Part shown: piece after piece, positions 1 to 56,239 of the stretch
How the letters are laid out: the number at the start of each line of letters is the position of its first letter
Position numbering within the stretch: position 1 is the first letter of the stretch
NCBI RefSeq assembly: GCF_036365525.1
Contig: NC_090416.1
Span: forward strand, 16,650,945-16,714,944
Length of the DNA: 64,000 nt
Source: Heterodontus francisci
Taxonomy: Eukaryota
Reading direction: 5' to 3'
Translations under genes and position numbers: made by a program
Notes under the pieces: generated by a model
Seen by the model: only the letters and a program-made list of their open reading frames with translations
Database searches by the model: none
Told to the model about the DNA's origin: nothing

Positions 1-630
1 CTAGTTCTGCTCTCGCCCGCAAGTGGAAACGTCTCGCCATATCGAGTCCTTTCATAACCTTAAAGGCCTCCATCAGGTCCTACCCCCCCCCCCCCCCCCC
101 CCCCCCCCCAGCCCCTCTCAGTCATCCCTTTTCAACCTATCCTGGTACCCTATCTCAGTACTGGTACCATCCCAGCACATCTTTTCTTGCACCTTCTCCA
201 GTGTCATTTTATAATATGGAGACAGGAACAGTGCACAGTAATTCCAAGTGTGGTCTAACTGAGGTTCCCTACAAGTTTGACTTAATGTATCTGCTTCTCA
301 ATTCTATCCCTCGAGAAATTAACCCCGGTGTTTGGATTGCTTTTTATATGGCCTTATTCAGCAGCATTGCTGCAGTTACTCTATAACCCTCGATCCACAA
401 CCCTATTTAGACTCTTTCTTCCCCACCTCCCCCTCCCTCCAGGACTAGGTGACCTCATTCATCCTCCCAAAAAGTAGCACCTCACACTTATCCATACTGA
501 CCTTCATTTGCCAATTACACACCCATTCTGCATGTCACTTCATGTCCTGTCATTTGTGATGGACCTAATATTAACTGCAGCCTCCCCCAATTTGGAGTCA
601 TCAGCAAACTCTCAAATTGTACCTGGTGCT
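1..630 (-). mobile_element. Highly degenerate CR1 RT fragment, minus strand; recurs near 15500-16190, 31660-32260, 49440-50150
   Basis: The reverse complement contains AGACCACACTTGGAATTACTGTGCAC (RPHLEYC-like) and TTTGCTGATGACTCCAAATTGGG (FADDSKLG). Confidence 0.7.
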
Positions 631-699
631 AGTCTGTCCCGTGCCATCCCATCTCTCGGACCGGGATAGTGAGCAATTCTCCCTGGGAGGGACGGTATT

Positions 700-1270
700 T
701 TATTCCAAACAGAGGCTTTTCCTGTAAATCACATACAATGATGGTCTAGTATGGGAGAAACTACACTTTAGGATGGGAGGGTTGTTGAGAGGGTGCAGAG
801 GAGGTTTACCGGAATGGTTCCAGGGATGGGGGAATTCTAGTTATAAGGTCAGCCTGGAGAAGCTGGGCTTGTTTTCCTTGGAGCGAAGGAGATTGCAGGG
901 AGATTTAATAGAGGTGGACAAGATTATGACAGATCTGGATAGAGTAGACAAGGAAAAACAGTTCCCATTAACTGATGGTACAAGGGATAGGGGACACAGA
1001 TTGAAAGTTTTGGGCAAGGGATACAAGGGGGGGGGGGATGTGAGGAAGAATTTATTTATTTTTAAATGCAGTGAGTGACAATGACCTGGAACTCACTGCC
1101 TACCAGAGTGGTGGAAGCAGGAGACAATGATTTCAGTAAGAAACTTGGGTGGGGGGGGGGGGGGGGGGACACTTAAATTCGCAGGGTGCCCCGGGGGGAT
1201 TGGGACATACTGGATTGCACCACGGGGAGCTGTCATGGATCCGAGGGGCCGAATAACCTCCTTCTGCGCC
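700..1270 (+). mobile_element. Degenerate CR1 3' fragment just beyond the 3' end of each IgL gene
   Basis: LEKLGLFSLERRRLQGDLIEV motif. Confidence 0.85.
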
Positions 1271-1458
1271 AGAAATAAAATCGAAGACGTTTAAAATAGT
1301 TAACTCTGCTTGAATATTTTTTATTAAATCTGCCCAAAAGAAAAATCCTCAAATCGCCAATATTCGTACAGTTAACCACTGACTTGCACCAATATCCACC
1401 TCAACTCACCCCCAAACCCCCACAAAAAAATAACAGAGCAATTTGAATTCATGTCATC

Positions 1459-1464
1459 TTTATT
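1459..1464 (-). terminator. Putative polyadenylation signal AATAAA of IgL cluster 1 (equivalents at 17029-17034, 33121-33126, 51008-51013)
   Basis: AATAAA about 330 nt after the C stop, followed by a GT/T-rich tract on the minus strand. Confidence 0.7.
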
Positions 1465-1793
1465 AAAACAGCCACACACACAGAGATACACTTTTCAATT
1501 CTAACAAATGGTACTACTGAGAGAAAGGAGAGAGGGAGTAGAACCCATCCAGCTCCAAATGGGAATGTACTCCCGGGATAGGTGTTCCTGATATTCACTG
1601 TCACCCACCTGCGCCCCCCAGTTAAAATTGGATCCAAAATTGGATCGTTAAACTGCGATTGAAGTGACTGTTTCAACATCGTTGGCCACATTTGCTACAG
1701 TGATTACATTGTAAAACAACAACAACAACATTCCACATATTGAATAATATTTCATCAGCAATAAATCAAACTCTAAGCCCCAGTTGCCCCCTC

Positions 1794-2122
1794 TCAGTCG
1801 GAACAAGCGGTGGAGCTGATGGTTTTGAGGAGAGGTGAGCTCAGAGAGCCGTGGTCCACACTGCAGGTATAGCTGGAGCCCTTATTCCAGGCAGTGGCGG
1901 GGACTCTCAGGTAACTGCTCAGGCTGTAGCTTTGATCACTGTCCGTGGACACGGTGCCTGTGGTCACCCCGCTGTCTGTCTCTTTATCATCCACTCTCCA
2001 GAGAACCCGCACGAAACCCGGCTTAAAGCGGCTCACCAGGCAGGACAGAGTAGCCCATCCGGAGTCTATTTCTTCCGAGGAAGGAGGGAGCAGGAGAACT
2101 GATGGTTTCCGATCCTCACTAC
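1794..2122 (-). CDS. Ig light chain constant exon, cluster 1 (shark type I/NS5, sigma-cart-like)
   Basis: Acceptor cacacag|GT at 2122 (phase 1). Translates (S)SEDRKPSVLLLPPSSEEIDSGWATLSCLV...VLW...YSLSSYL...W...YTCSVDH...TACSD*, a C1-set domain with a near-terminal inter-chain Cys. TGA at 1794-1796. Confidence 0.97.
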
Positions 2123-3124
2123 CTGTGTGTGAGAGACAGGGTGGAAGAAAGGAATCTCACTGTTAGTATCAATCATTTTTTCTAAAAGGCACATCCAGAA
2201 TTAGTAACACATACTATAATTTAAAACAAACATTTAACTTGACTTCAGACTTAGGTAGAGACAGTAAATAATATAATAGCCTGAGTGTTTCCAGCACTCG
2301 ATTTCAGATTTCCAGCATCTGCAGGATTTTGCTTTGATTGGATTAAAATTAAATATTTAGTCCAATCTTAACTCCCTGTCAATTGAGAGCTGGACTTGTA
2401 CATGGATTCGAGACATTCAGATAAATTAATTAACTGAATATTAAATACAACAGACAATATCGAATTGTTTAAAATTCAGGGGCAGATTAAAATCAAAAGT
2501 TTAAAAATTGAGGAAGTTTCACATTTCGGATAGGCTGTACTGGAGGTCTTATGGAGGTGCTCGGAGTATGTATTGGGAGTAACTCAACCTCCCAGATCCA
2601 CACTCAGAGTTCGGTGATCACCTCACCAGGAAAAATTCTTTATTTATAAAAAAAGAGTTTTAAAAGTAATAAAGTTCGGGGCGGTTTCCATTTAGAAAGT
2701 AGGTTAGACACTTCACATGAAGGAATGACAGTCGGAAGGAGGGGGCTGGGAAGGGAGACGGGGGGTCGGGGCTAGTGGGACCGGGTGCGTTAGGAACAGA
2801 CAAGATGGGGGTGCGCAGAATGAGGCCATTCGGTCCATCGAGTCCGTGCCGCTGCCTAATCCACCTCCCAACTTTGGGAGTCTTTTTTTGAGGTGGGGGA
2901 GGGGGTGTTAGTGTCAAACTCGACCCCCTTTGAGTGTGAGTAAAATTCATGTTTGTAAATCTTCCAGCAACACCCGGGGCAGGCTCGCTATTTATACAAC
3001 AGTGCAGCGAATAGACGGAGAAGTCCACACCTGCACACTGCAGACCTGGCCGAACAGACTCCAGGGGCTGAATGGCCTTTCTCCCCTGTTCATTCTGCAT
3101 TTTTTTTTGCCAATGGAGTTTTTC

Positions 3125-3270
3125 CTCGGTTCTGAGGAAAGGTCAGAGACCCGAAACTGTTCACCGTTTCTCCCTCTCTCTCCGCAGAGGCTGCCCAGAC
3201 CTGCTGAGTATTTCCAGCATCTTCTGTTTTTTTATTTCAGATTTCCAGCATCCGCAATTGTTTTGCTGCT
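3125..3270 (+). mobile_element. Penelope-derived terminal-repeat fragment in the J-C intron
   Basis: CTGAnGA...GAAAC...GCTGCCCAGACCTGCTGAGTATTTCCAGCAT...TTCAGATTTCCAGCATC. A shorter copy lies at 2280-2335. The assignment is from recall. Confidence 0.55.
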
Positions 3271-3449
3271 ATTTTAGTGTTTATTTTTCTACCCTCCAGA
3301 ATCCAAATTCCCAGCACTGAATCAGTGGACAGAAAAATAAAAATCTGACCCAATTTTTTTTCACCGTTATCAGGGCAGATCCGATTCTGCAACAATAAAT
3401 GAATAAATAATTGAAACAATATGAATGATAGGATGAGGGAATTACTTAC

Positions 3450-3486
3450 TCCGTAAACTCAGGGCGGTCCCAGGTCCGAAGGTAAA
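3450..3486 (-). CDS. IgL J segment, cluster 1 (FTFGPGTALSLR)
   Basis: FGxG motif and donor A|GTAAGT. The phase matches the C exon. Preceded by an RSS. Confidence 0.96.
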
Positions 3487-3525
3487 CACAGTGCAGTGTT
3501 TTAATGGGACGGGTCACCTAAAACC
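3487..3525 (-). other. J recombination signal sequence, 23-bp spacer, cluster 1
   Basis: On the + strand: heptamer CACAGTG 3487-3493, 23 nt, nonamer CCTAAAACC 3517-3525 (7/9 match to ACAAAAACC). Confidence 0.92.
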
Positions 3526-3840
3526 CAGGCTGGGAAGAAAGAGGGGAAAATATTAATAATCTGTCCTTTATCACATTCCCTTTCACATTCTGCCTTTCAC
3601 AGGGGCCGGAATGCTGAGAGTCTGGAGAAAGATTTTCACAGATCAGTGAGGAAACCCTGAGAATATCAGTGTTTACCAACCCAGCTAATAGTCCAAATAT
3701 TGGGGAAAATCCAAATAAACCCATGGAAACCCAGTGAGATTTTCCACAAGTTACATAAGGAATATTTCTGAAGCTCATTACACAGTCTCAGGCAGGAATA
3801 TTTCAGTTGCTGTTGGAATTCTGAGTGGTTCTGTTGATAC

Positions 3841-3868
3841 AGTTTTTGTATTGCCCTGTCTCACTGTG
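3841..3868 (-). other. V recombination signal sequence, 12-bp spacer, cluster 1
   Basis: CACAGTG, 12 nt, ACAAAAACT on the minus strand. Confidence 0.96.
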
Positions 3869-4196
3869 TATGTAGCTGCTGAGTATTCCGCGGCAGCACA
3901 GTAATAGACGGCGGAGTCTCCCGGTTCCAAGCTGCCGATGGTCAGAATGTGACTGTTACTGGAGGTGTCTCTGGAAGGTTTAAAACGGTCCGTGAAGCCG
4001 GTGCCTCGATTGATGCTCCCATCTTTATAGTGCACTAACACCCACACCGGAGCCTCCCCGGGTCGCTGTCGGTACCAGCTCATGTAGTAACTGCCCACAT
4101 TGCCGTTCTGCATCGCACACTTTAACTCGGAGGTCTCACCGGCGGAGACTGGGTCTGAAATTGGGGTCTGATTGAGGACAGGAACCGCCAGGACAC
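3869..4196 (-). CDS. IgL V exon, cluster 1
   Basis: Acceptor ttgaag|GT. Translates VLAVPVLNQTP...LKC...WYRQRPG...DRF...DSAVYYCAAAEYSAAT with V-set Cys/Trp/Cys. Ends at the heptamer. Confidence 0.97.
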
Positions 4197-4359
4197 CTTC
4201 AACACAAAACACAAGAGAGAGAAAAAAACATTCAGTTTATTGGAGCAAAAAAAACACACTGATAAATAAACAGGCCGGGCTACCAAATCCCTTTGCTTCC
4301 TAATCTAATGGTTTACAAATGAATAATTGAGTAACGCTCTGTTAACATAAGTCTCTCAC

Positions 4360-4408
4360 CTGTTAAATGGAGTAGCAGGGTCCCCAGGAGATACATTACT
4401 GCAGCCAT
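4360..4408 (-). CDS. IgL leader exon, cluster 1 (MAAVMYLLGTLLLHLT-G)
   Basis: ATG at 4408, hydrophobic signal peptide, donor G|GTGAGA, phase 1 matching the V exon. Confidence 0.93.
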
Positions 4409-4513
4409 TCCCTCCGGGGGGGAAAAAAACCCGTGAAGAATTAGAGAGCAGGGTTTTACTGTAACTCCAGAAAGTGGATCCAGTTACAGTGCCGGACAAG
4501 GTGAGACCAGTAT

Positions 4514-4538
4514 CTATTATATGAACCTGTATGCAAAT
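4514..4538 (-). promoter_or_regulatory. IgL promoter: octamer ATTTGCAT (4531-4538) and TATA-like TATAAT, cluster 1
   Basis: Perfect octamer in light-chain orientation about 125 nt upstream of the ATG. Confidence 0.9.
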
Positions 4539-5899
4539 ACAGGGAGGGTTGAGAGGAGCAGGGGCGGCGGGGGGGCGGGGGGCGGGGGGTGGACCAGACC
4601 AGATTTTTTTTATTGAGCCTCTATTGGTCCCCAATTAAACATTTCCATGTATTTATTTCCACCGAGTTGAGGGTTAATTCACAATAATTTCTGATTTTAA
4701 CCCCCCCCCTTCTCATGTCAAGAGTGTGAGATTTAAAAGAACAACTGTAGAAATTGCACATTTTATCCCAGATGGGCAAAGACAAAAGCCCTTCAGAATC
4801 CAGTGCCTTGAATTCATCCAGAACAAGTTTAACCCAGCGATCGTTAAGGATTTGTTTTTTTTTTATATTTGGGTCTGCAATGTGTACTTAAACACATATC
4901 TTTATATCCAACACGCTGGTGTTTGCAACAAAGCAGTTCATTGGAAGGATTGGAATGGAAGAGATTGACTGGACTGCTTCTCTCAGCTGCTCTTTTTTCC
5001 TATCCGCCACTGTACAAGTGCACTGCTTGTCCTGGCGTTTGAGCCGAGTGTAGGGTCAAAACACTCGTTTCTCACTCAGGCCGACGTTCAGAAACAGCCA
5101 GAATCAACTCCAATATCCGTTTTAATTGGTAATGCAACGAGGAGTGAGATTCTGACCCGGCAAGCTGACTGCTCGGCTAGTTTCTGTGTTGTGTCCGGAT
5201 CCTGTGTTAAGTCCAGTTTCAATGAAATGTGTTTTCCTGCTGCAACAGTTCCTGCCCTGACTTTTTTTTGTTGCAACTAAACCACATGTATCGGAACCTC
5301 AGTCCCAGGAATACATTTGTTTTAACATTCCATTTCAGATGTTTTATGTCAATCACTCGATGCCAAGGGAAAACGTGCAACAAGTAGCTGGTGAGAGGAG
5401 TTAGTTTCTTTAAAATGAATATTTTCTATCTTTATTTTAAATTCACTTCATGGGATATGGGCATCACTTGGCCCTGCCCGCATTTATTGCCCATCCCTCA
5501 TTGCCGTTGAGAAGGTGGTGGTGGAGCCGCCTTCTTGAACTGCTGCAGTGCAGTGGTTTTTTACAACAGAACGTCCATTTCTGAGGGCAGTTAAGAGTCA
5601 ACCACATTGCCGTGGGTCTGGAGTCACATGTAGGCCAGACGAAGTGAGGACGGCAGATTTCCTTCCCTAAAAGGACATTTGTGAACCAGATGGTTTTTTG
5701 TTAATGAACATTCAATGGTAGTTTTATGGTCACCATTACTGAGACTAGGTTTCAATTCCAATTTTTAAAAATTAATTAGTTGAATTTAAATTCCATGGTG
5801 GGATTTGAACACGTGTCTCCAGAGCATTATCCTGGGCCTCTGGATTAGTAATATCTAGTGACATTATTACTACGCCACCTTGTGATGGATCAATATTAA

Positions 5900-6255
5900 T
5901 TCTAGAAATGTGATAGGATTTGAGCCAGTGAAAGGGGGAAGGTGGGAAGAAGAACAGCAGGGAAGGTCTGTGACAGGGGTGGAGGGCAGGAGAGATTAAA
6001 TGACAAAAAGGGTTTCAAGGTGCAAAGCCAAAGGGAGTGGTAATGAAAGATGTGTCTGGACGAGGTGTGAATGACAGGTACTGAACACAAGGTAAAGGAA
6101 ATAAGAGGTAAACAAGAGAGATAAAATAACAAATCAGCAAACAAAAAGGGAAACAAAAATGAGGGCAGGGGGGTTACAAACTAAAATTGTAGAATTCAGT
6201 GTTGAGTCCGGAAGGCTGTAGACTGCCCAGTCGAAAGATGAGGTGCTGTTCCTGG
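5900..6255 (-). mobile_element. Penelope-like element 3' fragment; recurs in all units
   Basis: The reverse complement of about 6190-6252 encodes EQHLIFRLGSLQPSGLNTEF, typical of the Penelope GIY-YIG C-terminus. Confidence 0.7.
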
Positions 6256-6519
6256 AGTTAGTCTCCTAATACTGACATGTTCAGTCAAGTCAGTGTCGAC
6301 TAGCTGCCTCCTAGACAGAGAATTTGACTCCTCCCCAATTAAAAATCCGTTTCTGATTGGTCTCCACAGCAGAAACAGACCCACCTCCCTCCCCTCCCAC
6401 CAGGCAGATTCTCTGGGTCATTTTCAACTAAACCTAACCTGCATTACTATAGAGACCTCAGGATGTCCTAAAGACAGACAAATAAACACCTGTTTTGAAG
6501 TCTGGTCATTGTAACATCA

Positions 6520-6682
6520 TAACCCAATGCACAATGGAAATAAATATTTGGAAATGATCAATCAGGGACAATTATATTTTTAATAAAGTGTTTTCCCCTG
6601 CTCCCCTTGACCCCCTCCCTGTATTTGCATATTGACTAATACATAGATACTTGTATTCTCCGGGTTCCCGGAGTTACAGTAA
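6520..6682 (+). promoter_or_regulatory. Inverted, diverged paralog of the IgL promoter with intact octamer (6623-6630), unit 1
   Basis: Colinear blocks shared with the reverse complement of about 4459-4680: TGGAAATAAATA..TGGAAATG, CCCCTGCTCC, CCCTCCCTGTATTTGCATA, ATAGATACT, GGAGTTACAGTAA. Confidence 0.75.
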
Positions 6683-6764
6683 TCTTGTTGAAGTGAAAGC
6701 ACAATTGCTAAATGTGTGAGAAGCTGAACTCAGCTTTGCTCGTGTAGTTGAATAGAGGGTGCAC

Positions 6765-6860
6765 ATATGTAGTTAAATGGAGTCATCCACGTATGTAGTT
6801 AAATGGAGTCATCCACGTATGTAGTTAAATGGAGTCATCCACGTATGTAGTTAAATGGAG
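6765..6860 (+). repeat. 26-bp tandem repeat GTATGTAGTTAAATGGAGTCATCCAC (copy number varies among units)
   Basis: About 3.7 copies here and in unit 2, about 2.7 in unit 3, about 1.7 in unit 4. Confidence 0.9.
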
Positions 6861-7117
6861 AGTGCCAGTGTGCAGTAAAATGGGGTTGTGCACATGTCTA
6901 ATGGAAAGCAGTTCAGCACCTCTAGGTTCATAGAATCTCTCACTTTGCACAGCAGATGTCACATGGCTGCAGCTTTGCCCAGGGAGCCTACCCGGTTCAC
7001 ACAGGATAGGCCAGGTGTTAAAGCAAGAGCATTTGGTGTTGCCTATTGAAGCTTGCACAATGGTTAAAGGAAAATACAATTAAAGTTCACAAGATGGGAA
7101 TCTTGTAAAGTGTCAGC

Positions 7118-7640
7118 CATGGCCTCGTGGGTTCAAGTCCCAATCCAGAGACTTGAGCACAAAAAACAGTCTCACATTCCCCGTGTAGTACTGAGGGAGC
7201 GCTGCACTGTCGGAGGTTCAGTACTAAGAGAGTGCGGCACTGTCGGAGGGTCAGTACTGAGGGAGTGCTGCACTGTCGGAGGATCAGTACTGAGGGAGTG
7301 CTGCACTGTCAGAGGGTCAATACTGAGAGAGTGCTGCACTGTCAGAGGGTCAGTACTGAGGGAGTGCTGCACTGTCTGAGGTGCTATCTTCACAAGTCCC
7401 CCTCAGGTGGACATTATCGATCCCATGACTCTATTTGAAGGAGAGCAGGTGCCCTGGACAATATATATTCCAACATTAACACCTAAAACTGTAACTGGTC
7501 ATTATCACATTGCTATTTGTGGGAGCTTGCTGTGTAAATGACTGTCAGATTTCCTGCATTTCAACAGTGACTACATTTCAAAACACACTTCAAAAGTACG
7601 TCATTAGATGTAAACCACTTTGGGGCAGCCTAGTGATCAG
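7118..7640 (+). mobile_element. DeuSINE (SacSINE1-like) with internal minisatellite; recurs in all units
   Basis: B box GGTTCAAGTCC, Deu-like core and tail (GGTCATTATCACATTGCT...GTAAA..CTTTGGG). The family assignment is from recall. Confidence 0.65.
7188..7376 (+). repeat. 33-bp minisatellite, about 6 copies
   Basis: Unit GTACTGAGGGAGTGCTGCACTGTCGGAGGGTCA. Confidence 0.95.
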
Positions 7641-7859
7641 ACCACTCTGTCTCTCCATCTGTCTATCTGTCTATGTATCTGACCACTCATCNNNNNNNNN
7701 NNNNNNNNNNNNNNNNNNNNNNNNNNNNNNNNNNNNNNNNNNNNNNNNNNNNNNNNNNNNNNNNNNNNNNNNNNNNNNNNNNNNNNNNNNNNNNNNNNNN
7801 NNNNNNNNNNNNNNNNNNNNNNNNNNNTAGTTCCAGACCGGTAAGTTTAAAAAACTTAC

Positions 7860-8032
7860 TTCGGGGATTCTCGCACCAGGCTCGGAGGGCGGAGTTAACC
7901 TCGGGAATTTTCGGAGCAAACTCGGAGATTCTCGGTCAGACTCGGAGGCCGGAATTAATCTCGGGGATTCTCGGACAGAGTCGGAGGGCGTGGTTAACCT
8001 CGGTGATTCTCGGACAGACTCGGAGGGCGGAG
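7860..8032 (+). repeat. About 39-bp GC-rich tandem repeat upstream of CR1 ORF1 (also 24243-24390, 40830-41140, 57390-57562)
   Basis: Unit ACTCGGAGGGCGGAGTTAACCTCGGGGATTCTCGGACAG. Confidence 0.88.
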
Positions 8033-8214
8033 TTTGTGTCGATGGGCCGAAGGGCCTGTTTCTGTGCTGTATCTCTAAATAAAAATAAAAATAAAAAAAT
8101 AAAATAATATTTATAGTCGAAATCCAGCACTAGGGGCCATATATTTAATTATAACAATTTAGTAAGGATTTAATAAGTATTTATTTTATATTAATTAACT
8201 AATTAGTGATAGAA

Positions 8215-9135
8215 ATGTCAGTTAAAGGGGTGAAGTGCTTCACCTGTGAGATGTGGGAAGTCCGTGACACTTCCAGTATTCCGGGCGACTCCGCCTGCAG
8301 GAAGTTTACCCAGTTGCAGCTCCTCACAGACCACATGGATCGGTTGGTGCGGCAACTGGATGCACTTAGGAGCATGCAGGTGGCAGAGAGCGTCATAGAC
8401 AGGAGTTTTAGAGAAGTGGTTACACCCAATGTGCAGGCAGATAGATGGGAGACCGCTAGAAGGGGCAGGCAGTCAGTGCAGGAATCCCCTGTGGCTATCC
8501 CCCCTCGCTACACCATTTTGGATACGGTTGGGGGGGATGGCCTAGCAGGGGAAAACAACAGCAGCAGCCAGAGCAGTGGCACCACAGCTATCACTGTTGT
8601 TCAGCAGGGAGGGACAAAGCGCAAAGAACAATAGTTATCGGGGACTCTATAGTCAGGGGCACAGATAGGCGCGAATGTGGACGTGAAAGAGACTCCAGGA
8701 TGGTATGTTGCCTCCCTGGTGCCAGGGACAAGGATGTCTCTGAATGGACAGGGGGCATTCTGAAGGGCGAGGATGCACAGCCAGAGGTTGTGGTACACAT
8801 CGGTACCAATGACAGAGGCAGGAAGAGTGATGAGGTCCTGCAGGGGGAGTTTAGGGAGTTAGGTAGAAAGTTAAAAAAACAGGACCTCTAGGGTTGTCAT
8901 CTCTGGATTAGTCCCTGTGCCACGTGCCAGTGAGGCTAGAAATAGGAAGATAGTGCAGCTAAACACGTGGCTGAGCAGCTGGTGTAGAAGGGAGGGTTTC
9001 AGATATCTGGACCATTGGGCTCTCTTCAGGGACAGATGGGACCTGTACAAGAAGGACGGGTTGCATCTAAACTGGAGGGGCACTAATATCCTGGCTGCAA
9101 AGTTTGCTAGCGTCACTCGGGAGGGTTTAAACTAG
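8215..9135 (+). pseudogene. CR1 ORF1 (zinc finger/leucine zipper and esterase), frameshifted
   Basis: Split over ORFs 8206-8634, 8700-8891 and 8917-9135. Ends REGLN*. Confidence 0.88.
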
Positions 9136-12074
9136 TGTGGCAGGGGGGTGGGAACCAGAGCAGTGGGACAGCTAGAAAAATAAATGAGGAGGACATAGTA
9201 AATAAGGCCAGTAAGACTAAGAGGAAGAGCAGGCAGGAAGATGTTGCTGAGCACAGCGGGACTGGTGGTCTGAAGTGCATTTCTTTCAATGCGAGAAGTA
9301 TAACAGGTAAGGCAGATGAACTTAGAGCTTGGATTAGTACTTGGAAATATGATGTTGTTGCTATTACAGAGACTTGGTTGAGGGAAGGGCAGGATTGGCA
9401 GCTAAATGTTCCAGGCTTTAGAAGCTTCAGGCGGGATAGAGGAGGATGTAAAAGGGATGGGGGAGTTGCATTACTGGTTAAGGAGAATATCACAGCTGTA
9501 CTGCGGGAGGACACCTCAGAGAGGTCATGCAGCGAGGCAATATGGGTGGAGCTCAGGAATAGGAAGGGTGCAGTCACGATGTTGGGGGTTTACTACAGGC
9601 CTCCCAACAGCCAGCGGGAGGTAGAGGACAAGATATGTAGACAGATTTTGGAAAGATGTAAAGGTAACAGGGTTGTGGTGGTGGGTGATTTTAACTTCCC
9701 CTATATTGACTGGGACTCACTTAGTGCTAGGGGCTTGGATGGGGCATAATTTGTGAGGAGCATCCAGGAGGGCTTCTTGAAGCTGTATGCAGACAGTCCA
9801 ACTAGGGATAGGGCCATTCTGGACCTGGTATTGGAGAATCAGCCCGGCCAGGTGGTCGAAGTTTCAGTGGGGGAACATTTCGGGAGCAGTGACCATAATT
9901 CCATATGTTTTAAGGTACTTGTGGATAAGGATAAGAGTAGTCCTCGGGTGAAGGTGCTAAATTGGGGGAAGGCTAATTATAACAATATTAGGCAGGAATT
10001 GAAGAATTTAGATTGGGGGCGGCTGTTTGAGGGTAAATCAACATCTGACATGTGGGAGTCTTTCAAACGTCAGCTGATTAGAATCCAGGACCAGCATGTT
10101 CCTGTGAGGAAGAAAGACAAGTTTGGCATGTTTGGGGAAATTTGGATAACACTGGATATTGTGAGCCTAGTCAAAAAGAAAAAGGAAGCATTTGTGAGGG
10201 CTGGAAGGCTAGGAACAGACGAAGCACTTGAGGAACATAAAGACAGTGGGAAGGAACTTAAGCAAGGAGATAGGAGGGCTAAAAGGGGTCATAAAAGGTC
10301 ATTGGCAAACAGGATTAAGGAGAATCCCAAGGCTTTGTATACATATATAAAGAGCAAGAGGGTAACCAGGGAAAGGGTTGGCCCACTCAAGGATAGAGAT
10401 GGGAATCTATGTGTGGAGCCAGAGGAAGTGGGCGAGGTGCTAAATGAGTACTTTGCATCAGTATTCACCAAAGAGAAGGACTTGGTGGATGATGAGCCTA
10501 GGGAAGGGAGTGCAGATAGTCTCAGTCATCTTATTGTTAAAAAGGAGGAGGTGTTGGGTGTTTTGCAAAGCATTAAGGTAGATAAGTCCCCAGGGCCTGA
10601 TGGGATCTACCCTAGAATACTGAGGGAGGCAAGGGAAGAAATTGATGGTTTCTTGTCAGAAATCTTTGCATCATTTTTGGCTACAGGTGAGGCCCCAGAG
10701 GACTGGAGAATAGCCAATGCTGTTCCTTTGTTTAAGAAGGGTGGCAAGGATAATCCAGGAAATTATAGGCCGGTGAGCCTTCCGTCAGTGGTAGGGAAAC
10801 TATTAAAGAGGATTATTCGGGACAGGATTTACTCCCATTTGGAAACAAACGAACTTATTAGTGAGAGACAGCATGGTTTTGTGAAGTGGAGGTTGTGTCT
10901 TACTAATTTGAATGAGTTTTTTGAGGAAGTGACGAAGAAGATTGATGAAGGAAGAGCAGTGGATGTTATCTATATGGACTTTATTAAAGCCTTTGAGAAG
11001 GTCCCGCATGGCAGACTGGTACAAAAGGTAATGTCACATGGGATCAGATGTGAGCTGGCAAGATGGATACAGAACTGGCTCGGTCATAGAAGACAGAGGG
11101 TATCAGTGGATGGGTGTTTTTCTGAATGGAGGGATGTGACTAGTGGTGTTCCGCAGGGATCAGTGCTGGGACCTTTGCTGTTTGTAGTATATATAAATGA
11201 TTTGGAGGAAAATGTAGCTGGTCTGATTAGTAAGTTGGCGGACGACACAAAGGTTGGTGGAGTTGCGGATAATGATGAGGATTGTCAGAGGATACAGCTG
11301 GATATAGATCGGTTGGAGACTTGGGTGGAGAAATGGCAGATGGAGTTTAATCTGGACAAATGTGAGGTAATGCATTTTGAAAGGACTAATGCAGGTGGGA
11401 GGTATACAGTAAATGGCAGAACCGTTAGGAGTATTGACAGACAGAGAAATCTGGGCGTTGCGGTCCACAGGTCACTGAAAGTGGCAACGCAGGTGGATAA
11501 GGTAGTCAGGAAGGCATACGGCATGCTTGCCATCATTGGTCGGGGCATAGAGTATAAAAATTGGCAAGTCATGTTGCAGCTGTACAGAACCTTAGTTAGG
11601 CCACACTTAGAATACTGCGTGCAATTCTGGTCGCCACACTACCAGAAGGACGTGGAGGCTTTGGAGAGGGTACAAAGGAGGTTTATCAGGATGTTGCCTG
11701 GTCTGGAGGGCATTAACTATGAGGAGAGGTTGGAAAAAGTCGGATTGTTTTCACTGGGACGACGGAGGTGGAGGGGCGACATGATAGAGGTTTACAAAGT
11801 TATGAGCGGCATGGACAGAGTGGATAGTCAGAAGCTTTTTCCCAGGGTGGAAGAGTCAGTTACTAGGGGACATAGGTTTAAGGTGCGAGGGGCAAAGTTT
11901 AGAGGGGATGTGCGAGGCAAGTTTTTGACACAGAGGGTGGTGAGTGCCTGGAACTTGCTGCCAGGGGAGGTGGTGGAAGCAGATACGATAGCGACGTTTA
12001 AGAGACATCTTGACAAATACATGAATAGGAAGGAAATAGAGGGATTTGGGCCCCGGAAGTGCAGAAGGTGTTAG
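9135..12074 (+). pseudogene. CR1 ORF2 endonuclease/reverse transcriptase with one in-frame stop (TAA 9747-9749)
   Basis: ORFs 9135-9749 and 9753-12074 are in the same frame. The RT motif reads LADD here and FADD in units 2 and 4. Confidence 0.93.
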
Positions 12075-12409
12075 TTTAGGCAGGCATCAAGATCGGTGCA
12101 GGCTTGGAGGGCCGAATGGCCTGTTCCTGTGTGGTACTGTTCTTTGTTNNNNNNNNNNNNNNNNNNNNNNNNNNNNNNNNNNNNNNNNNNNNNNNNNNNN
12201 NNNNNNNNNNNNNNNNNNNNNNNNNNNNNNNNNNNNNNNNNNNNNNNNNNNNNNNNNNNNNNNNNNNNNNNNNNNNNNNNNNNCTCGCTCTATCTATTTG
12301 TCTGTCTGTCCATCTCTATCTATCTGTCTGTCCATCTCTGTCTGTCTGTCTGTCTATCCCTCAGTACTGACCCTTTGACAGTGCGGCACTCCCTCAGTAC
12401 TGACCCTTT

Positions 12410-13630
12410 GGGAACTGAATATTCCAGGGTATTTGACAGTTTGGAATGACAGGAAGCAAGGAAAAGGAGGTGGTGTAGTTCAGTTAATAAAGGATGAGAT
12501 CAGTACAGTAGTGAGAAATGATCTTGTATCAGAAAATCAAGATGTGGAATCAGTTTGGGTGGAGATATGAAATAGCATAAATTCATACAGTAGCTGCACT
12601 GTGGGACAGAGTATAAATCAAGAAATAAGGGGGGCTTGTAAGGAAAATACTGCAGTAATCCTGGGTGATTTTAATCTTCATATAAATTGGAGTAATCAAA
12701 CTGGTAAAGTTAGATAGAGGATGAGTTCATGGAGTGTACTCAGGACAGTTTCTTAGAACAATACACTCTGGAACCAATCCGGGAGCAGGATATTTTAGAC
12801 CTGGTAATGTGTAAGGAGACGGAATTAATTAATGACCTCTTAGTAAAGGAAGAATAGAAAAGCAGAATATTATTTACATGGAGAGAGACTGCAGAATGCT
12901 GCAGTACAGAGGGATCTGGGTGTCCTTGTACATGAATCACAAAATGTTAACATGCAGGTTCAGAAAGTAATTAGGAAGAGAAATGGAATGTTTGTATTTA
13001 TTGCAATGGGGATGGAATATAAAACTAGGGCCATCTTGCTACAACTGTACCGGGTATTGGTGAGACCGCACCTAGAATACTGCATGCAGTTTTGGTCTCC
13101 TTATTTAAGGAGGGATATACTTGCATTGGAAGCAGTTCAGAGAAGGTTCACTTGGCTGATTCCTGGGATGAAGGGATTGTCTGATAAGGAAAGGTTGAGC
13201 AGGTTGGGCCTGTTTGGAGTTTAGAAGAATGAGAGGTGATCTTATTGAAATGTGAAAGGTTCTGAAGGGGTTTGACGGGGTAGATACTGAGAGGATGTTT
13301 CCCCTCATGGGAGAATCTAGAACTAGGGGGAACAGTTACAGAATACGGGGTCTCCCATTTAAGACGGAGATGAGGAGGAATTTCTTCTCTGAGGGTCATT
13401 AATCTTTGGAATTCTCTTCCCCAGGGAGCAGTGGAGGCTGGGTCATTGAATATATTCAAGGCTGAGTTGGAGAGTTTTTTGATCTCCAAGGGAGTTGAGG
13501 GTTATGGTGGGGGGCAGACAGGAAAGTGGAGATAAGGTCACAATCAGATCATCCATGATCTTATCGAATGGCGGAACAGTCTCGATGGCCCGAATGGCCT
13601 TCTCCTGTTCTTATTTCTTATGCTTTTATG
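12410..13630 (+). mobile_element. Older, internally deleted CR1 (endonuclease fragment fused to RT 3' end); recurs in each unit
   Basis: GDFN-like fragment, then LVRPHLEYC..W ORF pieces and a CR1 tail GGCC...CCTGTTCTTATTTCTTATG. Confidence 0.85.
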
Positions 13631-14664
13631 TTGAAGATATCGTACCTGCTGTATTCAATAGCTGTCCAGGTCTTTAAATCCCAAAGTGGCCGTAACTGTT
13701 CCTATCTGTGCAGAGAGCCCTTGACAGTAATATAATATAATGAAAATGGCCTGGCTGAAACTCCCCGGGTCTGGATATCTCAGTACAGATCGGGGAAGGG
13801 ATGGTCGGAGTGCTGGAAACTGGACCTTCCCAGCAAGTGTCCTGTAAGGGAACTGAATGACCTCAACGAAGGAACGAGTTCACAGAGGGAGATGAGGCTG
13901 ATGTGATTGCAGTGTGTGCGAACAAGAGGAGGCCATTCAGCCCTTCGAGACTGCTGTACCATTCCATTAGATCATAGCTGGTCTGTACCTTAACCCCATA
14001 TACCCTGCCTTAGCTCCATAGTCCTTGCTGCCCTTACCCAATAAAAATCTATCAACCACAATCTTTATAACTCCAATTTTTAATGAAGTGCATTTCTATA
14101 GCGTCTTTCACAACCTCAGGATGTTCCCAAAGTGCTTCGCAGCCAATGAAATACCTTGTAAAGCAATGTTGGGAAATGAAGACTGGGATGTAGAGCAGGA
14201 GGAGTTCAGTTCAGTTCTCCTGAGGGGCCCAGTCCAGATAATGGGTTGTTTTGTTGTAAATGTGTGACGTGTCCAAGAATGTAACCGTTTAATGGTGTGT
14301 CTGAGATTTCCGTCCTGTTTCTGTGTGTTTCAGAGCAGGGGAACTGGGCCCAGATGCTGCTGCTCTCTGCTGCTTATCAGACAGTGAACAGGGAGGTTTC
14401 GGTTCCTCCCCGAGGCTCCTCTCCCACCCCCTGCAGCGAGTGACCACACCACCTGCACCACATCACAAACAAGACAAAAACAGCATCGATTTGGGTATCA
14501 GGATCTAAAATAAGGCTTTCAGAACACCGCCCAGGTCCCCTGTGGTTGATGACGAGGGCCTGATCTGAGCTGCATTCAGTGCCATTCTCAGACCCAGTCT
14601 GGAACCTGGCTGTTCGGCCATGTGAATCATCAACATTGTAGATTTAACTGGACTGATAAACGTT

Positions 14665-14830
14665 TGATGGCCTTTAAGATACTCCTTAAAACCTACCTCT
14701 TTGACCGAGCTTTTGGTCACCTGCTCTAATATCTCCGAATGTGGCTCAGCATTAAACTTTGTTTGCTGACGCCCCTTGCGACGTTTTATTACATTAAAGG
14801 CGCCATATAAATGCAGATTGGTGGTTGTTT
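14665..14830 (+). mobile_element. L2-like LINE 3' end, followed by a degraded DeuSINE-like copy (about 14930-15250)
   Basis: CTCCTTAAAACCTACCTCTTTGACC (LLKTYLF) and tail AAAGGCGCCATATAAATGCAG. Confidence 0.55.
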
Positions 14831-21465: not shown

Positions 21466-22454
21466 AAGGTGGTGGTGGAGTCGCCTTCTTGAACTGCTAC
21501 AGTGCAGTGGTTTTTGTACAACAGAACTGAGGGCAGTTAAGTGTCAACCACATTGCCGTGGGTCTGGAGTCACATCTGGGCCAGACCAGGTGAGGAAGGC
21601 AGATTTCCTTCCCTAAAAGGACATTTGTCAACCAGATGGTTGTTTGTTAATGAACATTCAATTTATGGTCACCATTACTGAGACTAGGTTTCAATTCCAA
21701 TTTTTCTTTTTATTAATTAGTTGAATTTAAATTCCATGGTGGGATTTGAACACGTGTCTCCAGAGCATTATCCTGGGCCTCTGGATTAGTAATATCTAGT
21801 GACATTACTACTACGCCACCTTGTGATGGATCAATATTCATTCTAGAAATGTGATAGGATTTGAGCCAGTGAAAGGGGGAGCGTGGGAAGACGAACAGCA
21901 GGGAAGGTCTGTGACAGGGGTGGAGGGCAGGAGAGATTAAATGACAAAAAGGGTGTCAAGGTGCAAAGCCAAAGGGAGTGGTAATAAAAGATGTGTCTGG
22001 AGGAGATGTGAATGGCAGGATCGGAACACAAAGTAAAGGAAATAAGAGGTAAACAAGAGAGATAAAATAACAAATCAGCAAAGAAAAGGGCAACAAAAAT
22101 GAGGGCAGGGGGGTTACAAACTAAAATTGTAGAATTCAGTGTTGAGTCCGGAAGGTTGTAGAGTGCCCAGTCGAAAGATGAGGTGCTGTTCCTGCAGTTA
22201 GCCTCCGATTACTGACATGTTCAGTCAAGTCAGTGTCGACTAGCTGCCCCCTAGACAGAGAATTTCACCCCTCCCCCATTCAAAATCCATTTCTGATTGG
22301 TCTCCACAGCAGAAACAGACCCACCTCCCTCCCCTCCCACCAGCAGATTCTCTGGGTCATTTTCAACTAACCCTAACCTGCATTACTATAGAGACCTCAG
22401 GATGTCCTAAAGACAGACAAATAAACACCTGTTTTGAAGTTTTGTCATTGTAAC

Positions 22455-22560
22455 ATCGTAATAAAGTGTTTTCCCCTGCTCCCCTTGACCCCCTCCCTGT
22501 ATTTGCATATTGACTAATATATAGATACTAGTCTTCTCCGGGTTCCCGGAGTTACAGTAA
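22455..22560 (+). promoter_or_regulatory. Inverted IgL promoter paralog, unit 2 (octamer 22501-22508, upstream block deleted)
   Basis: Same blocks as unit 1, with a deletion of about 60 bp 5' of the octamer. Confidence 0.7.
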
Positions 22561-37563: not shown

Positions 37564-38557
37564 AAGGTGGTGGTGGAGTCGCCTTCTTGAACTGCTACAG
37601 TGCAGTGGTTTTTGTACAACAGAACTGAGGGCAGTTAAGAGTCAACCACATTGCCGTGGGTCTGGAGTCACATGTAGGCCAGACCAGGTGAGGACGGCAG
37701 ATTTCCTTCCCTAAAAGGACATTTGTGAAACAGATGGTTTTTTGTTAATGAACATTCAATTTATGGTCACCATTACTGAGACTAGGTTTCAATTCCAATT
37801 TTTCTTTTAATTAATTAGTTGAATTTAAATTCCATGGTGGGATTTGAACACGTGTCTCCAGAGCATTATCCTGGGCCTCTGGATTAGTAATATCTAGTGA
37901 CATTACTACTACGCCACCTTGTGATGGATCAATATTAATTCTAGAAATGTGATAGGATTTGAGCCAGTGAAAGGGGGAGTGTGGGAAGAAGAACAGCAGG
38001 GAAGGTCTGTGACAGGGGTGGAGGGCAGGAGAGATTAAATGACAAAAAGGGTGTCAAGGTGCAAAGCCAAAGGGAGTGGTAATGAGAGATGTGTCTGGAG
38101 GAGGTGTGAATGGCAGGATCGGAACACAAAGTAAAGGAAATAAGAGGTAAACAAGAGAGATAAAATAACAAATCAGCAAAGAAAAGGGCAACAAAAATGA
38201 GGGCAGGGGGGTTACAAACTAAAATTGTAGAATTCAGTGTTGAGTCCAGAAGGCTGTAGAGTGCCCAGTCGAAAGATGATGTGCTGTTCCTGCAGTTAGC
38301 CTCCGATTACTGACATGTTCCGTCAAGTCAGTGTCGACTAGCTGCCCCCTAGACAGAGAATTTGATCCTTCCCCATTAAAAATCCGTTTCTGATTGGTCT
38401 CCACAGCAGAAACAGACCCACCTCCCTCCCCTCCCACCAGGCAGATTCTCTGGGTTCCTTTTCAACTAAACCTAACCTGCATTACTATAGAGACCTCAGG
38501 GTGTCCTAAAGACAGAAAAATAAACACCTGTTTTGAAGTCTGGTCATTGTAACATCG

Positions 38558-38720
38558 TAACCCAATGCACAATGGAAATAAATATTTGGAAATGTTTAAT
38601 CAGGGACAAATATATTTTTAATAAAGTGTTTTCCCCTGCTCCCCTTGACCCCCTCCCTGTATTTGCATATTGACTAATATATAGATACTAGTATTCTCCG
38701 GGTTCCCGGAGTTACAGTAA
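38558..38720 (+). promoter_or_regulatory. Inverted IgL promoter paralog, unit 3 (octamer 38661-38668)
   Basis: Same blocks as unit 1, with TATA-like TAATATATAG. Confidence 0.72.
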
Positions 38721-54086: not shown

Positions 54087-56075
54087 ACAGGGAGGGTTGA
54101 GAGGAGCAGGGGCGGCGGGGGGGTGGGGGGGGGGGTGGGGTGGTGGACCAGACCAGATTTTTTTTATTGAGCCTCTATTGTTCCCCAATTAAACATTTCC
54201 ATGTATTTATTTCCACCGAGTTGAGGGTTAATTCACAATAATTTCTGATTTCAACCCCCACCCCCTTCTCATGTCAAGAGTGTGACATTTAAAAGAACAA
54301 CTGTAGAAATTGCACATTTTATCCCAGATGGGCAAAGACAAAAGCCCTTCAGAATCCAGTGCCTTAAATTCATCCAGAACAAGTTTAACCCAGCGATCGT
54401 TAAGGATTTGTTTTTTTTTAATATTTGGGTCTGCAATGTGTACTTAAACACATATCTTTATATCCAACACGCTGGTGTTTGCAACAAAGCAGTTCATTGG
54501 GAGGATTGGAATGGAAGAGATTGACTGGACTGCTTCTCTGAGCTGCTCTTTTTTCCGATCCGCCACTGTCCAAGTGCACTGCTTGTCCTGGCGTTTGAGC
54601 CGAGTGCAGGGTCAAAACACTCGTTTCTCACTCAGGCCGACGTTCAGAAACAGCCAGAATCAACTCCAATATCCGTTTTAATTGGTAATGCAACGAGGAG
54701 TGAGATTCTGACCGGGCAAGCTGACTGCTCGGATAGTTTCTGTGTTGTGTCCGGATCCTGTGTTAAGTCCAGTTTCAATGAAATGTGTTTTCCTGCTGCA
54801 ACAGTTCCTGCCCTGACTTTTTTTTGTTGCAACTAAACCACATGTATCGGAACCTCAGTCCCAGGAATACATTTGTTTTAACATTCCATTTCAGATGTTT
54901 TATGTCAATCACTCGATGCCAAGGGAAAACGTTCAACAAGTAGCTCGTGAGAGGAGTTAGTTTCTTTAAAATGAATATTTTCTATTTTTATTTTAAGTTC
55001 ACTTCATGGGATATGGACATCACTTGGCCCTGCCCGCATTTATTGTCCATCCCTCATTGCCGTTGAGAAGGTGGTGGTGGAGCCGCCTTCTTGAACTGCT
55101 CCAGTGCAGTGGTTTTTGTACAACAGAACGTCCATTTCTGAGGGCAGTTAAGAGTCAACCACGTCCCGTGGGTCTGGAGTCACATGTAGGCCAGACCAGG
55201 TGAGGACGGCAGATTTCCTTCCCTAAAAGGACATTTGTGAAACAGATGGGTTTTTTGTTAATGAACATTTAATGGTAGTTTTATGGTCACCATTACTGAG
55301 ACTAGGTTTCAATTCCAATTTTTTATTGTTAATTAGTTGAATTTAAATTCCATGGTGGGATTTGAACTCGTGTCTCCAGAGCGTTATCCTGGGCCACTGG
55401 ATTTGTAATATCTAGTGACATTACTACTACGCCACCTTGTGATGGATCAATATTAATTCTAGAAATGTGATAGGATTTGAGCCAGTGAAAGGGAGAGGGT
55501 GGGAAGAAGAACAGCAGGGAAGGTCTGTGACACGGGTGGAGGGCAGGAGAGATTAAATGACAAAAAGTGTTTCAAGGTGCAAAGCCAAAGGGAGTGGTAA
55601 TGAAAGATGTGTCTGGACGAGGTGTGAATGGCAGGTACTGAACACAAGGTAAAGGAAATCAGAGGGAAACAAGAGAGATAAAATAACAAATCAGCAAAAA
55701 AAAAGGGAAATAAAAATGATGGTAGGGGGGTTACAAACTAAAATTGTAGAATTCAGTGTTGAGTCCGGAAGGCTGTAGAGTGCCCAGTCGAAAGATGAGG
55801 TGCTGTTCCTGGAGTTAGTCTCCTATTACTGACATGTTCAGTCAAGTCAGTGTCGACTAGCTGCCCCCTAGACAGAGAATTTGACCCCTCCCCCATTAAA
55901 AATCCGTTTCTGATTGGTCTCCACAGCAGAAACAGACCCACCTCCCTCCCCTCCCACCAGGCAGATTCTCTGGGTCATTTTCAACTAACCCTAACCTGCA
56001 TTACTATAGAGACCTCAGGGTGTCCTAAAGACAGACAAATAAACACCTGTTTTGAAGTCTGGTCATTGTAACATC

Positions 56076-56239
56076 GTAACCCAATGCACAATGGAAATAA
56101 ATATTTGGAAATGATTAATCAGGGACAAATATATTTTTAATAAAGTGTTTTCCCCTGCTCCCCTTGACCCCCTCCCTGTATTTGCATATTGACTAATATA
56201 TAGATACTAGTCTTCTCCGGGTTCCCGGAGTCACAGTAA
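56076..56239 (+). promoter_or_regulatory. Inverted IgL promoter paralog, unit 4 (octamer 56180-56187)
   Basis: Same blocks as unit 1. Confidence 0.72.

What the first reader, a model, noticed from the sequence alone, without database searches (positions are those of the whole stretch)
4459..6690. Every IgL cluster has an inverted 'twin' octamer promoter pointing away from V
Seen: + strand 6520-6682 is colinear with the reverse complement of the real promoter. It includes an exact 19-nt match CCCTCCCTGTATTTGCATA around the octamer, plus ATAGATACT and GGAGTTACAGTAA near the likely start site, while the sequence between blocks has diverged. Weaker homology links 6299-6345 with the reverse complement of 5119-5180 (ACTAGC..AGAAT.T.ACTCCTC..CCAATTAAAA). 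The octamer is perfect in all four units. No leader or V exon follows. Inference: this is the relic of an ancient head-to-head gene duplication in which the motif blocks were preferentially retained, possibly acting as a B-cell enhancer, a divergent sterile-transcript promoter or an accessibility element.
Basis: partly seen in the sequence, partly recalled or inferred. Interest (0 to 1): 0.72.

Follow-up and report, generated by a model that had tools for sequence, protein, structure and literature searches.

The report
Decayed inverted shark antibody promoter copy
Upstream of each of four tandem horn-shark antibody light-chain genes sits an old, backwards-facing copy of the gene's own promoter, and it looks more like a slowly decaying leftover than a preserved control element.

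Summary
The window holds four tandem ~16-kb type I (sigma-2/NS5) IgL V-J-C clusters of a horn shark (Heterodontus), all on the minus strand. The inverted twin is real: 6495-6682 (+) aligns with the true promoter 4700-4456 (-) at 139/183 identity, score 102 against a best of 51 in 500 shuffles, with a perfect octamer in 4 of 4 units.

'Motif blocks preferentially retained' is not supported. Matches are no more clustered than under uniform decay (runs test p=0.33; longest run p=0.13-0.18). The twin diverges between units as fast as its flanks (0.030 vs 0.032). Unit 2 has lost 61 bp of it. An intact octamer in four ~97%-identical copies is expected (p~0.6). The weaker upstream link is borderline.

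No V relic follows. A possible decayed leader lies at 6963-7004, but its significance depends on scoring. The twin is about nine times more diverged than the clusters are from each other, so it predates their amplification.

Best reading: a neutral relic of an old inverted duplication, copied as a passenger. A residual enhancer or sterile-promoter role is not excluded; no other shark genome or stranded RNA was available.

The parts
6495..6682 (+). Twin: inverted paralog of the IgL V promoter (unit 1)
   Evidence: 139/183 identity with the reverse complement of 4456-4700; score 102 vs max 51 in 500 shuffles
6623..6630 (+). Perfect octamer ATTTGCAT of the twin; counterparts at 22501, 38661, 56180
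6637..6646 (+). TATA-like AT-rich stretch of the twin (TAATATATAG in units 2-4, one T>C change in unit 1)
   Evidence: Seen in the sequence; function not tested
4456..4700 (-). True V promoter arm, octamer at 4531-4538; carries a C-rich stretch (~30 nt) and a ~22-nt segment that the twin lacks
   Evidence: lies directly upstream of the spliced leader exon
4360..4408 (-). Leader exon (16 codons plus 1 base, GT donor)
   Evidence: Splice joint 4196/4360 in runs X5-X7; same leader as H. francisci proteins P0001, P0003, P0005
3841..4196 (-). Type I (sigma-2) V exon (3869-4196) and 12-bp-spacer RSS (3841-3868)
   Evidence: 96% best identity to H. francisci light chains; RSS read
3450..3525 (-). 23-bp-spacer RSS (3487-3525) and J segment (3450-3486)
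   Evidence: V-J joints with non-templated letters in X5-X7
1797..2122 (-). C exon
   Evidence: J-C splice joint
6319..6356 (+). Possible further upstream homology with the reverse complement of 5088-5153 (borderline)
   Evidence: 11, 15 and 287 of 600 shuffles reach the score under three scorings; 34 of 500
5440..6260 (.). Repetitive DNA filling the spacer between the arms (SINE/retroelement-like by recall; boundaries approximate)
   Evidence: Many repeat contigs of DNA run X1 pile on 5340-6249; 352-bp insertion at 5511 in units 2 and 3; no Pfam match in six frames
6762..6860 (.). 26-bp minisatellite, 3.8 copies, beginning 80 nt after the end of the twin
   Evidence: two copies fewer in unit 4 (52-bp gap)
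6924..7037 (+). Candidate further relic, inconclusive: TATA-region-like 6924-6954, leader-like 6963-7004 (starts with the same 10 nt as the true leader, no GT donor), intron-like 7021-7037
   Evidence: Shuffle p from 0.001 to 0.32 depending on query and scoring; reverse-complement controls often score as high
7187..7381 (.). 33-bp tandem array inside a SINE-like repeat that starts near 7110 (family and start recalled, not tested)
   Evidence: inverted related copies near 12357-12410
8460..12071 (+). LINE (GDSL-like ORF1 fragment, reverse-transcriptase ORF2) occupying the space where a twin V-J-C would lie
   Evidence: RVT_1 E=5.5e-31; Lipase_GDSL_2 E=0.004, below its cut-off
22434..22560 (+). 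Twin of unit 2, with a 61-bp deletion (coordinates approximate)
38533..38720 (+). Twin of unit 3 (coordinates approximate)
56052..56239 (+). Twin of unit 4 (coordinates approximate)

Best explanation
The twin is a non-functional relic of an old inverted duplication of the type I IgL V promoter region. It is most simply the 5' end of a second, oppositely oriented V gene or cluster that died. SHOWN: it is homologous to the true promoter, it is inverted, it is present in 4 of 4 units, and it is about nine times more diverged than the units are from each other. INFERRED: (1) the duplication happened once, before the 16-kb cluster was tandemly amplified, probably more than 100 million years ago; (2) the downstream V (and J-C, if ever copied) was lost by deletion and retroelement insertion; (3) the fragment was then copied passively with each cluster; (4) the 'blocks' mark sites frozen by selection in the real promoter, plus chance, and slow shark substitution rates let the relic stay recognisable. 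It may still bind Oct factors incidentally, but nothing indicates that selection keeps it.
For: Match pattern fits uniform decay: runs test p=0.33; longest run p=0.13 by permutation and 0.18 by simulation at the matching divergence; octamer kept by chance p=0.10, or 0.32 if only the twin lineage drifts. Pairwise divergence between units: twin 0.030, surrounding non-coding DNA 0.032; variable columns 7 of 127 against 43 of 678 in flanks, Fisher p=0.84. The real-promoter side 4456-5430 is more conserved between units than the twin side 6261-7180 (35 of 972 vs 50 of 805, p=0.014); gene conversion could also cause this. Twin 2 lost 61 bp; 4 of the 7 variable columns in the twin lie between the TATA-like stretch and the end of homology. 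Downstream lie a minisatellite, a repeat and a LINE, and no V. The leader-like stretch at 6963 would fit a dead gene: 8 of 1000 shuffles and 1 of 103 genomic windows reach its score under one scoring, and its first five codons rank 2nd of 24,169 positions with a profile of 16 leaders. H. francisci had the lowest substitution rate of the species compared in PMC3692497 (passages read).
Against: The tests have low power: 7 variable sites cannot separate real-promoter-like constraint (rate 0.037) from none (Fisher p=0.43). The octamer is perfect after ~0.29 substitutions per site, and a TATA-like stretch remains at a similar distance. The 61-bp deletion in unit 2 stops 42 bp short of the octamer. 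Homology ends sharply, with its last 13 nt identical, where a core promoter would end. One RNA-type run (X5) has contig cover inside 6614-6795. The leader relic is not robust: 15 to 268 of 2000 shuffles across five scorings, reverse-complement controls as high or higher in three of four scorings, and rank 5 when Heterodontus leaders are left out of the profile.
Confidence: 0.62

Rival explanations
1. Co-opted regulatory element: after losing its gene, the twin was kept as an Oct-dependent upstream enhancer or divergent sterile promoter that helps open each minicluster for V-J rearrangement or boosts V transcription.
For: Perfect octamer in 4 of 4 units. TATA-like stretch in three units, a CCAAT at -99 and an E-box at -136 in unit 1. 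The unit-2 deletion spares the core 88 bp. Contig cover inside 6614-6795 in run X5 (unstranded, one run, one sample). Inverted octamer-binding duplicates act as enhancers in the mouse IgH 3' regulatory region (PMC4000994, passages).
Against: No excess conservation between units and no excess clustering of matches. Substitutions fall in the TATA-to-start region, and 61 bp are deleted in one unit. A chance perfect octamer is expected 0.63 times per unit, so an octamer alone says little.
Confidence: 0.18
2. Passenger promoter of a living neighbour: the ancestral locus had two head-to-head type I clusters; the amplified 16-kb unit captured only the neighbour's promoter, and an intact gene driven by a twin-like promoter still exists elsewhere, for example at the end of the array or in the other leader subfamily.
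For: H. francisci has a second type I subfamily with a different leader (P0008-P0011, 83-87% V identity), and that leader type is the consensus of loose ends at 4198 in run X5. Two long-functional promoters would keep octamer and TATA spacing.
Against: All four twins are followed by the same non-genic sequence. The two subfamilies are close in protein sequence, whereas the promoters differ by 0.29 substitutions per site. If the 6963 stretch is a leader relic, the gene decayed in place.
Confidence: 0.1
3. Promoter-only inverted duplication by template switching: a replication error copied a few hundred bases backwards and never included a leader or V. The result is also neutral; only the origin differs from the best explanation.
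For: Homology stops sharply at 4456/6682, next to small hairpins in both arms (DNA folds of -7.6 and -8.1 kcal/mol, no shuffle control). No V relic.
Against: The leader-like stretch at 6963-7004, if real, shows that more than the promoter was copied.
Confidence: 0.07
4. The two arms are the long terminal inverted repeats of an old Tc1/mariner-like DNA transposon (about 4459-6679) whose left end now serves as the IgL promoter.
For: The best match lies at the outer ends, with TA just outside a common CTGTAACTCC start in units 1-3; arm length ~200 bp.
Against: No Pfam transposase match in six read-through frames of 4690-6503. The flanking TA is itself part of the inverted symmetry. An octamer upstream of V is general to fish light-chain genes (PMC5241823, passages), so no transposon donor is needed. 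DNA contigs do not pile up on the arms as they do on the known repeats (90% likeness only).
Confidence: 0.03

Closest known systems
Type I / sigma-2 / NS5 IgL V-J-C miniclusters of cartilaginous fish (PMC5192425, passages read)
   Same: [quoted passage not shown]
   Different: The review describes promoters only in association with V segments and segments in one orientation. An upstream inverted promoter copy is not mentioned in the passages read.
Relic or pseudogene V segments that keep a promoter (e.g. torafugu V1b, listed as a pseudogene with a perfect octamer and TATA; PMC5241823 Table 1, passage read)
   Same: An octamer/TATA region persisting at a dead V locus.
   Different: Here the V exon is gone entirely; only the promoter and perhaps a leader trace remain, and the relic was amplified with the functional cluster.
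Teleost IgL clusters with V in opposite orientation to J-C (PMC5241823, PMC5192425, passages read)
   Same: An oppositely oriented V transcription unit beside a V-J-C cluster is the arrangement the twin would have belonged to.
   Different: Teleost inverted V segments are intact and can rearrange by inversion; no V or RSS was found after the twin.
Mouse IgH 3' regulatory region palindrome, hs3a-hs1.2-hs3b (PMC4000994, passages read)
   Same: Inverted duplicate elements with octamer-factor sites at an Ig locus.
   Different: hs3a and hs3b are virtually identical, proven DNase-hypersensitive enhancers 3' of C. The twin is 76% identical, lies 5' of V, derives from a promoter and has no functional data.

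Membership tests
Type I (sigma-2/NS5) IgL minicluster (host gene) | V sequence of the type I family | tested here: met
   Best hits are H. francisci light chains at 83-96%; a skate protein named 'type I immunoglobulin light chain' at 67%
Type I (sigma-2/NS5) IgL minicluster (host gene) | Single V-RSS12, RSS23-J and C in one orientation, rearranged and spliced | tested here: met
   V-J, leader-V and J-C joints in X5-X7 and not in DNA run X1
Functional IgL V promoter (twin) | Octamer ATTTGCAT | tested here: met
   4 of 4 units
Functional IgL V promoter (twin) | TATA-like element downstream of the octamer | tested here: inconclusive
   TAATATATAG in units 2-4, altered in unit 1; no strong consensus
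Functional IgL V promoter (twin) | Followed by an intact leader exon and V exon | tested here: not met
   No V by tblastn or Pfam; the leader-like stretch is 7 nt short and has no GT donor
Functional IgL V promoter (twin) | Initiates transcription in B cells | not testable with these tools
   Only unstranded contigs were available; they cannot show start or strand
Relic of a duplicated V gene | Significant homology to the 5' region of a functional paralog | tested here: met
Relic of a duplicated V gene | Remnants of coding exons | tested here: inconclusive
   Leader-like 6963-7004: p 0.008-0.13 by scoring, reverse-complement controls as high
Relic of a duplicated V gene | Neutral rate of change | tested here: inconclusive
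   0.030 vs 0.032 in flanks and a 61-bp deletion fit neutrality, but power is too low to exclude constraint
Ig enhancer (IgH 3'RR hs3a/hs3b type) | B-cell DNase/ATAC hypersensitivity and enhancer activity | not testable with these tools
   No chromatin or reporter data
Ig enhancer (IgH 3'RR hs3a/hs3b type) | Arrangement conserved across species | not testable with these tools
   No other shark genome could be reached
Tc1/mariner-type DNA transposon | Transposase remnant between the inverted repeats | tested here: not met
   0 Pfam families in six read-through frames
Tc1/mariner-type DNA transposon | TA target-site duplication and dispersed copies | tested here: inconclusive
   TA present but part of the symmetry; no genome for a search for old copies

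The most novel reading that the evidence does not exclude
Each shark type I IgL minicluster carries an orphan, inverted octamer promoter, left from a lost second V gene and co-opted more than 100 million years ago as a cluster-autonomous 5' enhancer or divergent non-coding promoter that licenses that cluster for rearrangement. It would be conserved in other elasmobranchs, would give a handle on how single miniclusters are activated and excluded, and would show that shark light-chain clusters once had teleost-like inverted V segments.
Probability: 0.15. Interest if true: 0.65.

Novelty: new member of a known kind. Interest (0 to 1): 0.24.

Why it matters
As a neutral relic it is a modest evolutionary marker. 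It records that the horn-shark type I light-chain cluster once had an oppositely oriented partner or extra V, before the clusters were tandemly amplified, and it could help order duplication events across sharks. If it were instead a conserved, active element, it would be a testable candidate for the cis-control that activates shark miniclusters one at a time. I found no description of it in 10 full-text searches (seven aimed at Ig regulation or organisation, seen as listings only). The library lacks most subscription papers, including the original horn-shark light-chain genomic studies (recalled), so absence from print is not shown.

Tried and rejected
(1) No whole genome is held for this window, so there was no genome-wide search for other copies and no look at the end of the array.

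(2) The exact 19-mer in metagenome contigs gave 7 loci; none shares more than 23 nt with the shark region, so they are treated as chance.

(3) Earlier findings: nothing in four look-ups.

(4) Rfam on 1-16000: one match at E=0.99, far below its gathering score; rejected.

(5) Run search: no RNA holder listed on record; all 13 rows carry one species label, so no cross-species test was possible. I laid 4 of the 13 runs (X5, X6, X7, X1; one sample, possibly the source of the window). The RNA-type runs have no cover in bins 6432-6613 and 6796-6977, and X6 and X7 have none in 6614-6795. This lack of cover is not used as evidence: the data are contigs, unstranded, and drop rare or unstable RNA. Tables of variants, joints and pieces were truncated.

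(6) A rough estimate of the mRNA 5' reach from bin depths (4467-4468 in X5 and X6, 4447 in X7) is not used, because contigs cannot show a start.

(7) Transposon reading: no transposase.

(8) V or C relic downstream of the twin: none; the gapped DNA alignment of V to 7107-7377 runs through the tandem repeat and was discarded.

(9) A UTR-leader-intron hit at 7382-7691 (13 of 300 shuffles) is a gappy alignment ending in a microsatellite; rejected.

(10) The inverted hit 73-129 / 4541-4598 falls on C/G-rich low-complexity sequence; not followed.

(11) PMC2192082 (skate type I genes) is held only as abstract and references, so no outgroup promoter could be read. No supplements were opened.

Full report
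CONTEXT. Self-alignment shows four tandem units of about 16 kb at 93-97% identity. Each holds, on the minus strand, a leader, V exon, 12-bp RSS, 23-bp RSS, J and C exon. The V protein's best matches are Heterodontus francisci light chains at 83-96%, then other sharks and rays at up to 75%, including a skate 'type I' chain. These are type I (sigma-2/NS5) clusters, which are split in the horn shark (PMC5192425, passages). Runs X5-X7 show leader-V, J-C and V-J joints that DNA run X1 lacks, so genes of this family are rearranged and spliced (one sample, possibly the source of the window).

OBSERVATION. The twin is real. Window 6495-6682 (+) aligns to 4700-4456 (-) with score 102; 500 dinucleotide shuffles gave mean 30.0 and max 51. 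A global alignment has 139 of 183 columns identical, K2P 0.29. The 19-nt exact match and a 68-nt ungapped block at 71% are confirmed. The octamer is perfect in 4 of 4 twins and 4 of 4 true promoters. The weaker upstream link is borderline: 34 of 500 shuffles reach it, and 11, 15 and 287 of 600.

IS IT SELECTIVELY RETAINED? Three tests say 'not detectably'. First, the blocks are what uniform decay gives: 65 runs against 67.8 expected (p=0.33); longest run p=0.13 by permutation and 0.18 in simulations at 25% divergence (0.07 and 0.02 at 30% and 35%, which give lower identity than observed); octamer retention p=0.10. Because the true promoter is itself constrained, only the twin lineage is free to change at those sites, which raises the chance of an intact octamer to about 0.32. 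Second, the twin diverges between units at 0.030 against 0.032 for surrounding non-coding DNA; variable columns are 7 of 127 against 43 of 678 (p=0.84; the 61 columns deleted in unit 2 are left out of the 127). Third, twin 2 has lost 6520-6580, and 4 of the 7 variable columns lie between the TATA-like stretch and the end of homology, one inside GGAGTTACAGTAA. Eight invariant bases in four such copies have probability 0.54-0.64. Against my reading, power is low: the twin's rate cannot be told from the true promoter's 0.037 either (p=0.43), and the core 88 bp with the octamer survives in all four units.

AGE. The twin is about nine times more diverged from the true promoter than the units are from each other, so one duplication preceded the tandem amplification. 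Dating is inference. The mammalian neutral rate quoted in PMC4422223 divided by the factor of 2.4 in PMC3692497 gives roughly 160 million years. The shark rate assumed in PMC4422223 (2.2e-10) gives about 660 million years, older than Ig genes, so it is too slow for this sequence (passages). Either way the event is old enough that other galeomorph sharks may carry an ortholog, which makes the comparative test decisive.

WHAT FOLLOWS THE TWIN. There is no V or C relic by tblastn or Pfam. Next come a 26-bp minisatellite (6762-6860), a repeat with a 33-bp array (7187-7381) and a LINE. At 6963 the first 10 nt of the true leader recur in the twin's orientation; across the window this 10-mer occurs only there and at the true leader, once each per unit. 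The stretch reads M-A-A-A-L, ends 42 nt later at ACAG without a GT donor, and is flanked by a TATA-region-like match (6924-6954) and an intron-like match (7021-7037). Support is mixed. The leader query is reached by 8 of 1000 shuffles and 1 of 103 genomic windows under one scoring, but by 15 to 268 of 2000 across five scorings, and the reverse-complement control scores higher in three of four, because the minisatellite holds a 12-mer matching the leader's end in the opposite orientation. The TATA-region match is reached by 2 to 43 of 2000 shuffles; the whole chain by 2, 74 and 19 of 600. These were post hoc searches. I treat the relic as plausible but unproven.

EXPRESSION. Only unstranded contigs were available. 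X5 and X6 have pieces upstream of the true promoter (4722-5374), and X5 has cover inside bin 6614-6795 (mean word depth 3.57). Such data cannot show start, strand or level, so they neither support nor exclude a sterile transcript from the twin.

MECHANISM. Best explanation (0.62): a neutral relic of an inverted duplication, probably of a V gene or whole cluster, truncated by deletion and repeat insertion and copied as a passenger. Rivals: co-opted enhancer or sterile promoter (0.18); captured promoter of a still-living head-to-head neighbour (0.10); promoter-only template-switch duplication (0.07); transposon terminal repeats (0.03; no transposase, and the octamer is general to fish V promoters per PMC5241823).

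COMPARISON AND NOVELTY. The host genes are known. The twin fails the test for a functional V promoter (no intact leader-V) and fits a relic, a known kind of object at Ig loci. It resembles teleost inverted V segments in geometry and the mouse hs3a/hs3b palindrome in being an inverted octamer-site duplicate, but lacks the intact V of the former and the near identity and proven activity of the latter. I found no description of it in ten searches of an open-access library, which lacks most subscription papers. Papers were seen as search listings, except passages of PMC5192425, PMC5241823, PMC4000994, PMC12227049, PMC3692497 and PMC4422223 and the abstract of PMC2192082. Repeat family labels (SINE, retroelement) for 5440-6260 and 7110-7480 are recalled, not tested.

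VERDICT. The duplication origin is supported, preferential retention is not supported, and function is untested. Interest 0.24.

Noticed in passing
window 2122/4140 (- strand), joint: Runs X5 (1 contig) and X6 (2 contigs) splice from a cryptic GT donor 57 nt into the V exon straight to the C exon. Counted by hand, this joint is in frame and would encode leader + first 19 V-exon codons + C, a V-less light chain that needs no rearrangement. Absent from X7 and from DNA run X1.
   Followed up: partly
window 3530-3680 (- strand): A 151-nt GT-AG intron is spliced out of the V-J spacer in X5, X6 and X7 (3, 6 and 1 contigs; not in DNA run X1). Its acceptor lies 4 nt before the J-RSS nonamer, so unrearranged clusters give spliced germline transcripts.
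   Followed up: partly
window 6772-6861 vs 4362-4373: The 26-bp minisatellite unit contains a 12-mer identical to the end of the leader exon, in the orientation opposite to the twin and at about the distance where a twin leader would end. Chance or a local inversion; unresolved.
   Followed up: partly
window 4457-4490 (-) and 6645-6685 (+): Both arms can form a small hairpin just before the end of homology, sharing the 3' arm but with different 5' arms. The true promoter's extra ~22 nt looks like a short inverted copy of adjacent sequence (no shuffle control).
   Followed up: partly
window 4198-4360, loose ends: The consensus leader in run X5 is the second subfamily type (as in P0008-P0011), not the type found in all four window units, so other type I clusters with unknown upstream regions contribute many of the transcripts.
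   Followed up: no
window 4722-5374: RNA-type contigs cover the 0.7 kb upstream of the true promoter in X5 and X6; this could be divergent transcription from the true promoter. The region is also more conserved between units than the twin side.
   Followed up: no
window 3869-4196 and counterparts: The V exon is the most variable part of the unit (29 of 321 columns, clustered near CDR2 and CDR3) and the C exon is nearly invariant (5 of 321), as expected for diversifying selection.
   Followed up: no
window 8460-12071 and counterparts: A LINE with a long open ORF2 was amplified as part of the 16-kb unit; the unit-3 copy appears to have lost an internal piece.
   Followed up: no
window 39224-40078: The 33-bp tandem array is expanded to roughly 26 copies in unit 3, against about 6 in unit 1.
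   Followed up: no
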